Source of the DNA: a virus
Taxonomy: Duplodnaviria > Heunggongvirae > Uroviricota > Caudoviricetes
Direction: 5' to 3' (one strand)
IMG/VR virus record: IMGVR_UViG_3300014204_000107
Span: 1-43,467 of that record
Length of the DNA stretch: 43,467 nt
Each line of letters begins with the position of its first letter. Position 1 is the first letter of the stretch. The position numbers and the translations under genes were made by a program. The notes under the pieces are model-generated. The model made no database searches. It saw only the letters and a list, made by a program, of their open reading frames with translations, and was not told where the DNA came from. Below, piece after piece: positions 39,398-40,436 of this stretch.

Positions 39398-40189
39398 ATG
39401 GCAAAAACAGAAAAATTAAACACCTTATTGGCATTGAGGGAAAAGTATGAAACTACTTTTAAAAATGCTGTAAAGGATATGCTTAATACGTTCAAAAAAG
39501 AACAAGGTTTGTTCTTGGGCGAGCGTAAGACATATCAAGCATTGGACGGCTTTGCCGATGATGCAACAAAACGATCATTCAAAAAAGTAGCATCTACTGT
39601 AAACGAACAATTTGATTGGTTTAATGATAGCATTAAAGAATATATGCTTCAGTTATTCTCAATTGAAAAGACAAATGGAGTAGGCGTTGCTAAAGCAGTA
39701 TTAACTGTTGATGGCAAAGAATGGGGAGAATTCACATCAACTGAATTGTTACGTTTAAAGGGATTCTTGGAAAACAGCACATTGAAAGATATGTATTCGG
39801 AAATTCCCGTAAGATCTGAAACCATTCTATGGGAAAAATCAGACGATGAAATTTATACCGATAGGGTTGGCATATTTGAATCTCCAAAGGATGAAGGATT
39901 TGCTAAAACTACGATAAAAGAATCATATATTCTTCATGACCCACATGCAAAGGAAAATGCATCACGCACTCCTATTGTAGGTGAAAAATCTACTCAAGTA
40001 AATATTGGACAATATTCTGTTCAAAATTATACCGGACAAGCTTCAATGCGCGAACGTGCAGAAATGTTAAGACGTCTTGACGTATTACATAAGGCAGTTG
40101 TTGAAGCATTAGAAAAAGCAAACGATGTATCAGTTGTAGAAAGCACACTTGGTACAAAAGTATTTGACTTTATTAATAAAGGCAAGTAA
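39398..40189 (+). CDS. Conserved uncharacterised protein (largely helical) upstream of Y-RNA-like element
   Basis: 263-aa ORF; KLNTLLA, GERKTY, LTVDG, ELLRLK, KTTIKE, ALEKAN pattern resembles an uncharacterised bacterial/phage family as I recall it. Confidence 0.75.
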   Translation: MAKTEKLNTLLALREKYETTFKNAVKDMLNTFKKEQGLFLGERKTYQALDGFADDATKRSFKKVASTVNEQFDWFNDSIKEYMLQLFSIEKTNGVGVAKAVLTVDGKEWGEFTSTELLRLKGFLENSTLKDMYSEIPVRSETILWEKSDDEIYTDRVGIFESPKDEGFAKTTIKESYILHDPHAKENASRTPIVGEKSTQVNIGQYSVQNYTGQASMRERAEMLRRLDVLHKAVVEALEKANDVSVVESTLGTKVFDFINKGK

Positions 40190-40298
40190 CAATAATGACT
40201 CTAGCTTTAATGTTAGCCTCACAAATCTGCGTTTATTAACTTAATCGTTAATGTTGAGAGTCAAAGCATAAGCTTGAGATTAATATCTGAAAGCTAAT

Positions 40299-40436
40299 TA
40301 GCTATTTAGTTTGCTTCGGCAAACACAGAGGTCAGGTCGCAGGTTTAAATCCTGCCCCGCCATCAAAATAATTATAATACACTACATTGGCGGGTAGTTC
40401 AGCGATAGAATAAACCTTCTTGTTATTTTAAAGCTA
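40299..40436 (+). ncRNA. Circularly permuted tRNA mimic, YrlA Y-RNA-like
   Basis: 5'-3' order: GAGGT strand, T-arm GCAGG-TTTAAAT-CCTGC (40339-55), CCCGCCA (40356-62), 25-nt loop, TGGCGGG (40388-94), TA, D-arm GTTC/GAAT, ACCTT strand; outer TAGCT/AGCTA; extra GTTTGC-UUCG-GCAAAC hairpin. Confidence 0.72.

What the first reader, a model, noticed from the sequence alone, without database searches (positions are those of the whole stretch)
39398..40436. Conserved unknown protein + 6-nt-phased tract + YrlA-like permuted tRNA mimic
Seen: after the 263-aa gene come hexamer-phased runs (AGCTTT AATGTT AGCCTC at 40203; AGTCAA AGCATA AGCTTG AGATTA at 40259; TTAATGTT twice). They are followed by an RNA with the T-arm before a loop-closed acceptor and D-arm, whose anticodon-equivalent helix extends into terminal stems, plus an extra UUCG hairpin. 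Established: this permuted layout defines YrlA Y RNAs, which bind Ro60/Rsr and occur in some phages, often near RNA-repair genes. No Ro60/TROVE or RtcB gene is in the window. Inference: the upstream protein may be an unrecognised Y-RNA partner (the phased tract as a multimer binding site or 5' extension), forming a protein-RNA module, or the RNA hijacks host Ro60.
Basis: partly seen in the sequence, partly recalled or inferred. Interest (0 to 1): 0.82.

Follow-up and report, generated by a model that had tools for sequence, protein, structure and literature searches.

The report
Double tRNA-mimic RNA beside DUF7873 gene
A giant phage carries an unknown protein gene (DUF7873) followed by a roughly 385-base folded RNA with two tRNA look-alikes and rows of UAG repeats six bases apart; the pair recurs in many phages and some bacteria, mostly without Ro60, the usual partner of such RNAs.

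Summary
The 263-aa ORF is Pfam DUF7873. The 6-nt phasing is real and family-wide. The T-arm, loop-closed 7-bp acceptor and D-arm are strongly supported by covariation.

The RNA is larger than flagged, about 40197-40580. It continues through two more helix strands, an internal hairpin with a conserved loop, and a second tRNA-like module in normal order, which ARAGORN calls 'tRNA-???'.

A profile of the 5' domain hits once, on the gene's strand just after the gene, in all 40 IMG/VR loci. It does the same in 21 of 22 testable Bacteroidota genome loci. Five of five testable distant relatives also carry a tRNA-mimic RNA next to the gene.

The RNA resembles YrlA only in its tRNA-like core: 28-46 bits against a cut-off of 69. 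The phage does encode Ro60, 30 kb away, with its own Y-RNA array whose stem motif is absent here. Only 2 of 14 complete relatives carry a TROVE gene.

The best reading is a self-contained, Ro60-independent protein-RNA module. Binding, processing and function are untested.

This scan has noted the same DUF7873/tRNA-mimic pairing on other DNA (e1-2703945 and others). I found no paper on it.

The parts
39398..40189 (+). DUF7873 protein gene (263 aa)
   Evidence: ORF. Pfam PF25283 at 128 bits. AF2 model pLDDT 88.6 with no solved or named fold relative.
40164..40193 (+). promoter-like site just upstream of the RNA (weak, inferred)
   Evidence: TTGACT-18-AACAAT. The count in the region is not above shuffles. 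Relatives share an A/T-rich AATA(T/C)TG block before P1, and L008 has a hairpin plus U-tract between gene and RNA.
40197..40580 (+). whole structured non-coding RNA (about 385 nt)
   Evidence: The 5'-domain profile hits once per locus after the gene in all 40 phage loci and in 21/22 testable bacterial loci. Module anatomy.
40197..40262 (+). helix P1 (40197-40201 with 40258-40262) closing the 5' domain
   Evidence: GACUC/GAGUC here, different complementary sequences in relatives. Partner-swap duplex test 0/2000.
40202..40220 (+). hexamer-phased tract 1 (UAG/AG every 6 nt)
40236..40251 (+). small hairpin P2 (UUAAC/GUUAA)
   Evidence: Kept in the closest relative with a different loop.
40259..40282 (+). 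hexamer-phased tract 2 (four AG in phase)
   Evidence: AG at 40259, 40265, 40271 and 40277. Family consensus AAGCUUUAGNUUNAG.
40287..40294 (+). conserved GAAAG(C) motif on the 5' strand before helix P3
   Evidence: Aligned in most members. It resembles YrlA's GNCGAAN0-1G motif exactly in only about 3 of 37 members.
40295..40303 (+). helix P3, 5' strand (pairs with 40432-40440)
   Evidence: 8 of 9 pairs here. Different complementary sequences in relatives. Partner-swap test 8/2000.
40309..40324 (+). UUCG-capped hairpin, lineage-specific insertion
40328..40332 (+). anticodon-stem analogue, 5' strand (pairs with 40414-40418), followed by a 6-nt variable region
   Evidence: partner-swap test 0/2000
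40339..40355 (+). T-arm of tRNA-like module 1
   Evidence: 100% paired in 32 sequences. Aligned by the YrlA model.
40356..40394 (+). 7-bp acceptor stem closed by a 25-nt loop that begins UCAA
   Evidence: 99.6% paired, all 7 pairs change on both sides. The loop is 16-403 nt in relatives and begins UC in 35/36, UCNA-like in 30/36.
40397..40411 (+). D-arm of module 1
40424..40440 (+). 3' tract (weakly phased here) overlapping the 3' strand of P3 (40432-40440)
40441..40460 (+). conserved single-stranded tail (AAUGUGAGUAA..CAAAAA)
   Evidence: aligned in relatives
40461..40495 (+). internal hairpin with conserved loop (AAGGAUAUGAAG here; GAAGGAUAUUGA in most relatives)
   Evidence: The stems differ and stay complementary, and the loop is conserved.
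40500..40580 (+). tRNA-like module 2 in normal order with a non-standard anticodon region and an ACAA tail
   Evidence: ARAGORN 'tRNA-???'. Rfam tRNA 44.7 bits with a broken anticodon arm. The same element follows the hairpin in most phage loci and in bacterial chromosomal loci, with a middle region of 19-92 nt.

Best explanation
The locus is a two-part module: the DUF7873 protein gene and, directly after it, an RNA gene of about 385 nt.

Shown:
- The RNA is a conserved fold. Helix P1 closes a 5' domain that carries UAG/AG triplets spaced every six bases.
- Helices P3 and an anticodon-stem analogue lead into a circularly permuted tRNA-like core: T-arm, 7-bp acceptor closed by a loop of very variable length, D-arm.
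- A tail and a hairpin with a conserved loop follow, and then a second tRNA-like element in normal order whose anticodon region is replaced by a variable insert.
- Both acceptor 3' strands are followed by N-C-N-A, a degenerate CCA end.
- The gene and the RNA travel together in phages and in bacterial chromosomes, usually without a Ro60 gene.

Inferred:
- DUF7873 is the protein partner of this RNA, probably several copies bound to the single-stranded UAG arrays.
- The primary transcript is probably cut by RNase P at the two acceptor 5' ends. The closing loop would then be discarded, leaving a multi-piece particle held together by the acceptor, anticodon-analogue and P3 helices.
- The exposed tRNA-like elbows would engage a tRNA-recognising factor. 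That could be a processing or repair enzyme, or a tRNA-targeting nuclease for which the RNA acts as a decoy.

The biological role is not known.
For: Linkage:
- 5'-domain profile: one hit per locus, same strand, after the gene, in all 40 IMG/VR loci and 21/22 testable Bacteroidota genome loci.
- Permuted module: found in 35 of 36 distinct testable phage relatives by scanner, and in the 36th by eye.
- Distant DUF7873 clades (about 100-144 bits): 5/5 testable have a tRNA-mimic RNA adjacent, once upstream. Three further places without DNA show gene-free gaps of 411-482 nt after the gene.
- Bacterial copies sit among ordinary chromosomal genes with no shared neighbour.

Structure: (covariation and partner-swap tests).

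Periodicity. The bases between UAG triplets vary without compensation.

Ro60 independence:
- TROVE occurs in 5/27 relatives' contigs, and in 2/14 that are at least 90% complete.
- The phage's own Y-RNA motif clusters at 69.6-69.9 kb and 146-149 kb but is absent from 40190-40580.

Processing inference:
- The acceptor loop is 16-403 nt and holds a 57-aa ORF in three loci.
- M. smegmatis YrlA, with a 7-bp acceptor, is cut by RNase P and receives CCA (Chen et al. 2014, PMC4201824, read).
Against: - No transcript, end-mapping, binding or processing datum exists for this RNA.
- Gene-RNA synteny could reflect cis regulation rather than a complex.
- One bacterial locus (L051) has the gene but no RNA within 4 kb on either side.
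- The DUF7873 fold gives no hint of RNA binding.
- TROVE is present in this phage and in 3 of 5 carrier bacteria checked, so Ro60 could still take part.
- The sequences are related. Periodicity and shuffle statistics therefore overstate independence.
Confidence: 0.6

Rival explanations
1. It is a divergent but genuine YrlA-type Y RNA that works with Ro60, either the phage's own gene 30 kb away or the host's. On this view DUF7873 is an accessory or unrelated neighbour.
For: - The YrlA model RF02553 is the only Rfam family besides tRNA to hit here: E 0.0019 and 7.8e-5. It also hits 9 of 11 relatives at the same place.
- The phage encodes a TROVE+vWA protein.
- TROVE occurs in about a fifth of related phage contigs and in 3 of 5 carrier bacteria.
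- A GAAAG motif sits where YrlA has GNCGAAN0-1G.
Against: - All scores (28-46 bits) are far below the 69-bit cut-off and come from the tRNA-like core. The Ro-binding stem aligns poorly.
- The RNA is not adjacent to Ro60.
- 12 of 14 complete relatives have no TROVE gene.
- The phage's Ro60-adjacent Y RNAs share a stem motif that is missing here.
- The exact GNCGAA motif occurs in only about 3 of 37 members.
- The RNA is linked to DUF7873 in every phage relative examined and in 21 of 22 testable bacterial loci.
Confidence: 0.15
2. The RNA is a cis-acting part of the DUF7873 transcript. It would be a 3' UTR whose tRNA-like structures recruit RNase P or RNase Z to form or stabilise the mRNA end, or simply decayed tRNA genes of the cluster.
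For: - The RNA lies directly after the stop codon on the same strand in most loci.
- It sits inside a tRNA cluster, and a tRNA-shaped element ends the unit.
- No terminator-like site is found between gene and RNA in the window.
Against: - About 385 nt of conserved helices, phased repeats and a conserved hairpin loop is far more than end-formation needs.
- In L008 a hairpin plus U-tract and an A/T-rich block separate gene and RNA.
- In several loci the RNA starts 500-900 nt after the gene. In L075 it lies upstream of the gene.
- The same unit occurs in bacterial chromosomes outside tRNA clusters.
Confidence: 0.1
3. It is a split, tmRNA-like or permuted functional tRNA. After excision of the acceptor loop the tRNA-like domain would be charged with an amino acid and act on ribosomes, with DUF7873 playing an SmpB-like role.
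For: - The 7-bp acceptor, the dispensable intervening segment and the N-C-N-A after the 3' strand recall two-piece tmRNA genes and M. smegmatis YrlA, which gains CCA.
Against: - Acceptor sequences vary freely, with no conserved identity pair such as G3:U70.
- There is no anticodon and no tag reading frame.
- ARAGORN calls no tmRNA.
- Position 75 of the pseudo-CCA is variable.
- The DUF7873 fold search lists no SmpB-like match.
Confidence: 0.07

Closest known systems
YrlA (Y RNA-like A; Rfam RF02553; Chen et al. 2014, PMC4201824), partner of bacterial and phage Ro60/Rsr
   Same: Both have a circularly permuted tRNA-like domain: T-arm, loop-closed acceptor stem, D-arm, and an anticodon-stem analogue leading into a longer helix. 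In both, a purine-rich motif sits on the 5' strand of that helix. The 7-bp acceptor matches the M. smegmatis form, which RNase P cleaves.
   Different: - It scores 28-46 bits against a cut-off of 69.
- It is three to four times longer.
- It has a 5' domain with 6-nt-phased UAG arrays, an internal hairpin with a conserved loop, and a second tRNA-like module.
- It is encoded beside DUF7873, not Ro60, and mostly in genomes whose contigs lack TROVE.
The phage's own Ro60 with its four-unit Y-RNA array (G000:C1 about 69.6-71.6 kb); compare Thermus phage phiLo Ro60 with Yrl1/Yrl2 (Hu et al. 2025, PMC12135203)
   Same: Same genome, and both are small structured RNAs with tRNA-like pieces. Copy 3 of the array has a T-arm plus a closed acceptor.
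   Different: The array units are short, directly precede the TROVE gene, and share the stem motif (G)AGTTACTTCA. That motif is absent from the DUF7873-linked RNA.
Two-piece (circularly permuted) tmRNA genes
   Same: The gene order is T-arm, acceptor 3' strand, dispensable intervening segment, acceptor 5' strand. A dedicated small protein partner (SmpB) is the analogy.
   Different: There is no alanine identity pair, no tag ORF and no pseudoknot series, ARAGORN makes no call, and the partner protein is unrelated.
TRAP and HutP, oligomeric proteins that read spaced (U/G)AG triplets (from established knowledge, not tested here)
   Same: The RNA carries arrays of UAG/NAG triplets with short non-conserved spacers. 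This is the signature of one triplet per protein subunit.
   Different: The spacing here is 6 nt. DUF7873 is a 263-aa alpha/beta protein with no detected likeness to either. Oligomerisation is unshown.

Membership tests
YrlA (Rfam RF02553) | Score at or above the family's gathering threshold (69 bits) | tested here: not met
   28.0 bits in the window. 29-46 bits in 9 of 11 relatives.
YrlA (Rfam RF02553) | tRNA-like domain in the order T-arm, loop-closed acceptor, D-arm | tested here: met
YrlA (Rfam RF02553) | Encoded next to a Ro60/Rsr (TROVE) gene | tested here: not met
   The TROVE gene is about 30 kb away. TROVE is absent from 22 of 27 relatives' contigs and from 12 of 14 complete ones.
YrlA (Rfam RF02553) | Ro60-binding stem with the GNCGAAN0-1G motif on the 5' strand (Chen et al. 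2014) | tested here: inconclusive
   The window has CUGAAAGC at 40287-40294. The family consensus is NGAAAG(Y)C. The exact motif occurs in about 3 of 37 members.
YrlA (Rfam RF02553) | Bound by Ro60 in vivo or in vitro | not testable with these tools
   Needs immunoprecipitation or EMSA.
Canonical tRNA (Rfam RF00005), for 40500-40577 | Complete cloverleaf with a 7-nt anticodon loop and a readable anticodon | tested here: not met
   44.7 bits, but the anticodon arm does not align. ARAGORN reports 'tRNA-???' with a 2-nt anticodon. In relatives the middle region is 19-92 nt.
tmRNA (two-piece) | tRNA-Ala-like acceptor (G3:U70), tag reading frame, detection by ARAGORN or Rfam | tested here: not met
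   No tmRNA call. Acceptor pairs vary freely.
Pfam DUF7873 (PF25283) | Full-length match above the gathering score | tested here: met
   128 bits against a cut-off of 27, covering residues 5-260.
Ro60 / TROVE, for the 263-aa protein | TROVE HEAT-repeat ring plus vWA domain | tested here: not met
   No TROVE or vWA match for P0001. The alpha/beta model of 263 aa has no such fold match.

The most novel reading that the evidence does not exclude
DUF7873 assembles as several copies on the 6-nt-phased UAG arrays, one triplet per subunit as in TRAP-type readers. It would thereby build a new, Ro60-independent class of ribonucleoprotein. [quoted passage not shown] Phages and some bacteria would use the particle to capture, or to repair after, factors that attack tRNA.
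Probability: 0.25. Interest if true: 0.85.

Novelty: new variant of a known kind. Interest (0 to 1): 0.7.

Why it matters
Y RNAs and their tRNA-mimicking forms are known only as partners of Ro60. Here a YrlA-like core is built into a much larger RNA that is tied to a different, uncharacterised protein family. That family has about 1,800 clusters at 50% identity, three quarters of them viral in the ESM Atlas. If the two form a particle, it would be a second, independent use of permuted tRNA mimicry. It would also give DUF7873 a function and explain odd 'tRNA-???' calls in phage tRNA clusters. The phased UAG arrays give a directly testable binding site. A cultured carrier, Xanthocytophaga flavus (locus L055), makes experiments possible.

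Tried and rejected
- blastn of the locus against the phage record collection: no match.
- PHROGs, NCBIfam and PADLOC: no family for the protein.
- Profile search of PDB sequences: nothing meaningful.
- Fold searches: Foldseek against PDB gave only TM 0.1-0.15 rows. VIA-align gave only helical-bundle look-alikes with Z below 7. AFDB clusters gave only uncharacterised relatives. The Atlas gave only the DUF7873 cluster. Weak RAMP/Cas7-type rows (probability about 0.2) were not taken as evidence.
- Complex prediction with three copies of DUF7873: no verdict (score 0.21 against a mark of 0.42). This is neither support nor evidence against oligomerisation.
- A column-wise covariation scan on a sequence-based alignment found nothing useful, because the helices are misaligned by MAFFT. 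I replaced it with partner-swap duplex tests.
- Tract-to-tract Watson-Crick pairing of the hexamer runs, checked by eye: rejected, because the variable positions change without compensation (for example the UAGACU repeats of L034).
- Burroughs and Aravind 2016 (NAR) could not be read.
- 'DUF7873' occurs in no searchable paper.
- The Phage_DGR hit (18 bits, E 2.7) and the RAGATH-8 hit are chance-level.
- A survey of 301 Bacteroidota genomes found DUF7873 in only 2. That is too few for a co-occurrence test with TROVE.

Full report
Setting. The window is the first 43.5 kb of a 299,351-bp phage record with direct terminal repeats. Positions 35.4-40.6 kb hold a tRNA cluster. The flagged ORF, 39398-40189, encodes 263 aa and is a full-length member of Pfam DUF7873 at 128 bits. 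PHROGs, NCBIfam and PADLOC have no family for it.

The observation. My scanner looks for a T-arm, directly followed by a 7-nt strand, a loop, the complementary strand, two bases and a D-arm. In the whole 299-kb genome it finds only one hit with perfect Watson-Crick stems and a D-arm, at 40339. Rfam's YrlA model aligns to 40316-40429 at 28 bits, E 0.0019 for the 1.7-kb search. The T-arm, acceptor and D-arm align well and the outer stem aligns poorly. The cut-off is 69 bits.

Relatives. A profile of 37 DUF7873 proteins retrieved 39 IMG/VR loci, and a single-sequence scan had given one more. I built an nhmmer profile from the first about 145 nt after the gene. It hits exactly once in each of the 40 loci, on the gene's strand and downstream of the gene. 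The hit usually starts within 20 nt of the stop, and in six loci 240-900 nt later. The permuted tRNA-like module follows that hit in 35 of 36 distinct testable relatives by scanner. It is also present in the 36th (L029, which has a variant T-loop) by eye. L016 ends too early to test.

In 24 loci from GTDB species genomes, nearly all Bacteroidota (Cytophagales, Chitinophagaceae, Saprospiraceae), 21 of 22 testable ones have the same 5' domain after the gene. L051 has none within the locus. Two chromosomal copies lie among unrelated housekeeping-type genes with no shared neighbour.

An exhaustive profile search finds 1,806 DUF7873 clusters at 50% identity. Eight distant clusters were looked up and five gave enough DNA. 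All five carry a tRNA-mimic RNA next to the gene. Four have it downstream. One (L075) has it upstream, and there it consists of two tandem permuted modules. Three places listed without DNA show gene-free gaps of 411-482 nt after the gene.

Anatomy of the RNA (window coordinates):
- P1, 40197-40201 with 40258-40262, closes a 5' domain.
- Directly 3' of each P1 strand, and again just before the 3' strand, run tracts of UAG/NAG every six bases. The family consensus is UAGCYUUAGCAUUAGAUUUAGC and AAGCUUUAGNUUNAG.
- A GAAAG(C) motif at 40287-40294 precedes helix P3, 40295-40303 with 40432-40440.
- A UUCG hairpin at 40309-40324 is an insertion of this lineage only.
- The anticodon-stem analogue, 40328-40332 with 40414-40418, and a 6-nt variable region lead into the T-arm at 40339-40355.
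- The acceptor is 40356-40362 with 40388-40394, and the D-arm is 40397-40411.
- After P3 come a conserved tail at 40441-40460 and a hairpin at 40461-40495. The hairpin stem varies but its loop is conserved: GAAGGAUAUUGA in most relatives, AAGGAUAUGAAG here.
- At 40500 starts a second tRNA-shaped element in normal order: acceptor, D-arm, T-arm, acceptor. ARAGORN calls it 'tRNA-???' and Rfam scores it 44.7 bits with a broken anticodon arm.

The second element follows the hairpin in most phage loci. It also follows it in bacterial chromosomal loci that are not tRNA clusters. Its middle region ranges from 19 to 92 nt, and its 'anticodons' differ from locus to locus. It therefore belongs to the unit, and the RNA spans about 40197-40580, not 40203-40436.

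Statistical support. On a 32-sequence alignment of the core, the T stem is 100% paired and the acceptor 99.6% paired. Fifteen of 16 pairs change on both sides, no shuffle of 500 reaches the observed values, and slid controls pair at 34-52%. Sequence-based alignment scrambles the other helices. For those I compared the duplex energy of each sequence's own two strands with that of strands swapped between sequences. P1 and the anticodon analogue beat all 2,000 permutations, and P3 beats all but 8. The terminal-hairpin stems are visibly complementary and different in nearly every member. AG dinucleotides recur at lag 6 with z=23, at lag 12 with z=16 and at lag 18 with z=7 in the 5' domain. In the 3' part lag 6 gives z=7.5. 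The members are related, so these figures overstate independence. Even so, the bases between the UAG triplets vary freely and without compensation (AGCU, AGAC, AGUC). That argues for single-stranded recognition rather than pairing.

Two further regularities.
- The acceptor-closing loop ranges from 16 to 403 nt. In three loci it contains a 57-aa basic ORF.
- The loop begins UC in 35 of 36 members and reads N-C-N-A in 30. The second module's acceptor is likewise followed by A-C-N-A/U.

A 7-bp acceptor is the feature that makes M. smegmatis YrlA a substrate of RNase P and of CCA addition (Chen et al. 2014). I therefore infer, but have not shown, that the transcript is cut at both acceptor 5' ends. 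The loop would be lost and a multi-piece RNA would be held together by its helices.

Relation to Ro60.
- The genome, however, encodes a 482-aa TROVE+vWA protein at 70137-71585.
- That gene is preceded by four short repeat units sharing the motif (G)AGTTACTTCA, one of them with a T-arm and closed acceptor.
- On the + strand the motif clusters there and in a second tRNA region at 146-149 kb. It is absent from 40190-40580.
- Among 27 related phage contigs only 5 have TROVE, and only 2 of the 14 that are at least 90% complete.
- Three of five carrier bacteria have TROVE elsewhere in the chromosome.
- YrlA-model scores across the family are 28-46 bits.

So the RNA shares YrlA's tRNA-like core and perhaps its ancestry. 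It fails three of YrlA's defining features and is tied to DUF7873 instead.

The protein. AlphaFold2 with the family alignment gives a confident alpha/beta model (pLDDT 88.6, pTM 0.74). No solved or named predicted structure resembles it convincingly, and its sequence profile matches nothing in the PDB. Its fold therefore says nothing yet about RNA binding.

Verdict. The gene-RNA module is real and Ro60-independent in distribution, the YrlA label holds only for the core layout, and binding and function remain inference.

Earlier notes of this scan report the same pairing on more than 100 other genomes, and the Ro60/Y-RNA array of this genome. I re-derived both here. Points of my own are the phased UAG arrays as a family feature, the degenerate CCA after both acceptors, the very variable and sometimes ORF-bearing acceptor loop, the conserved hairpin loop, and the normal-order second module in this lineage. 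I found no publication on DUF7873 or on this RNA in the searchable library.

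Noticed in passing
G000:C1 about 69613-71585 (L002:800-2772), outside the window: A phage Ro60 (TROVE+vWA, 482 aa) is preceded by four tandem Y-RNA-like units sharing (G)AGTTACTTCA. Unit 3 has a T-arm plus a loop-closed acceptor but no D-arm. The same motif recurs on the + strand at 146-149 kb among tRNAs.
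   Followed up: partly
L040:4254-4427 (similar in L034 and L036): A 57-aa, very basic ORF (MANKSGGKGNKKYGRNKRKNERKGSPISLF...) with its own AGGAGG-like site sits inside the acceptor-closing loop of the tRNA-like module. This stretches the loop to 256-403 nt.
   Followed up: no
window 39297-39367: A weak tRNA-like match (20.9 bits, below the cut-off of 29) lies in the GC-richer stretch 39200-39370, just upstream of the DUF7873 gene. It may be another degenerate tRNA or mimic.
   Followed up: no
window 36810-36882: A second ARAGORN 'tRNA-???' with a 2-nt anticodon (Rfam tRNA 46.3 bits). The cluster holds several non-standard tRNA-shaped genes.
   Followed up: no
L043:1215-1510: A group I intron (84 bits, above the cut-off of 50) lies about 1 kb upstream of that phage's DUF7873 gene.
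   Followed up: no
L008:3277-3370: In the closest relative a long hairpin followed by a U-tract separates the DUF7873 stop codon from the RNA. An A/T-rich block precedes P1. This suggests the RNA has its own promoter.
   Followed up: partly
L009:3540-3616, L024:3811-3883, L045:2808-2879: In three relatives ARAGORN reads the second tRNA-like module as 'tRNA-Pyl' with anticodon CUA, the complement of the UAG triplets repeated in the same RNA. In L033 the corresponding loop (AGCUAUC) has non-standard flanking bases. This may be coincidence.
   Followed up: partly
L051 (Cytophagales MAG contig): A DUF7873 gene (50% identical) has no detectable partner RNA within 4 kb on either side. It is the only exception among the 22 testable bacterial loci.
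   Followed up: partly
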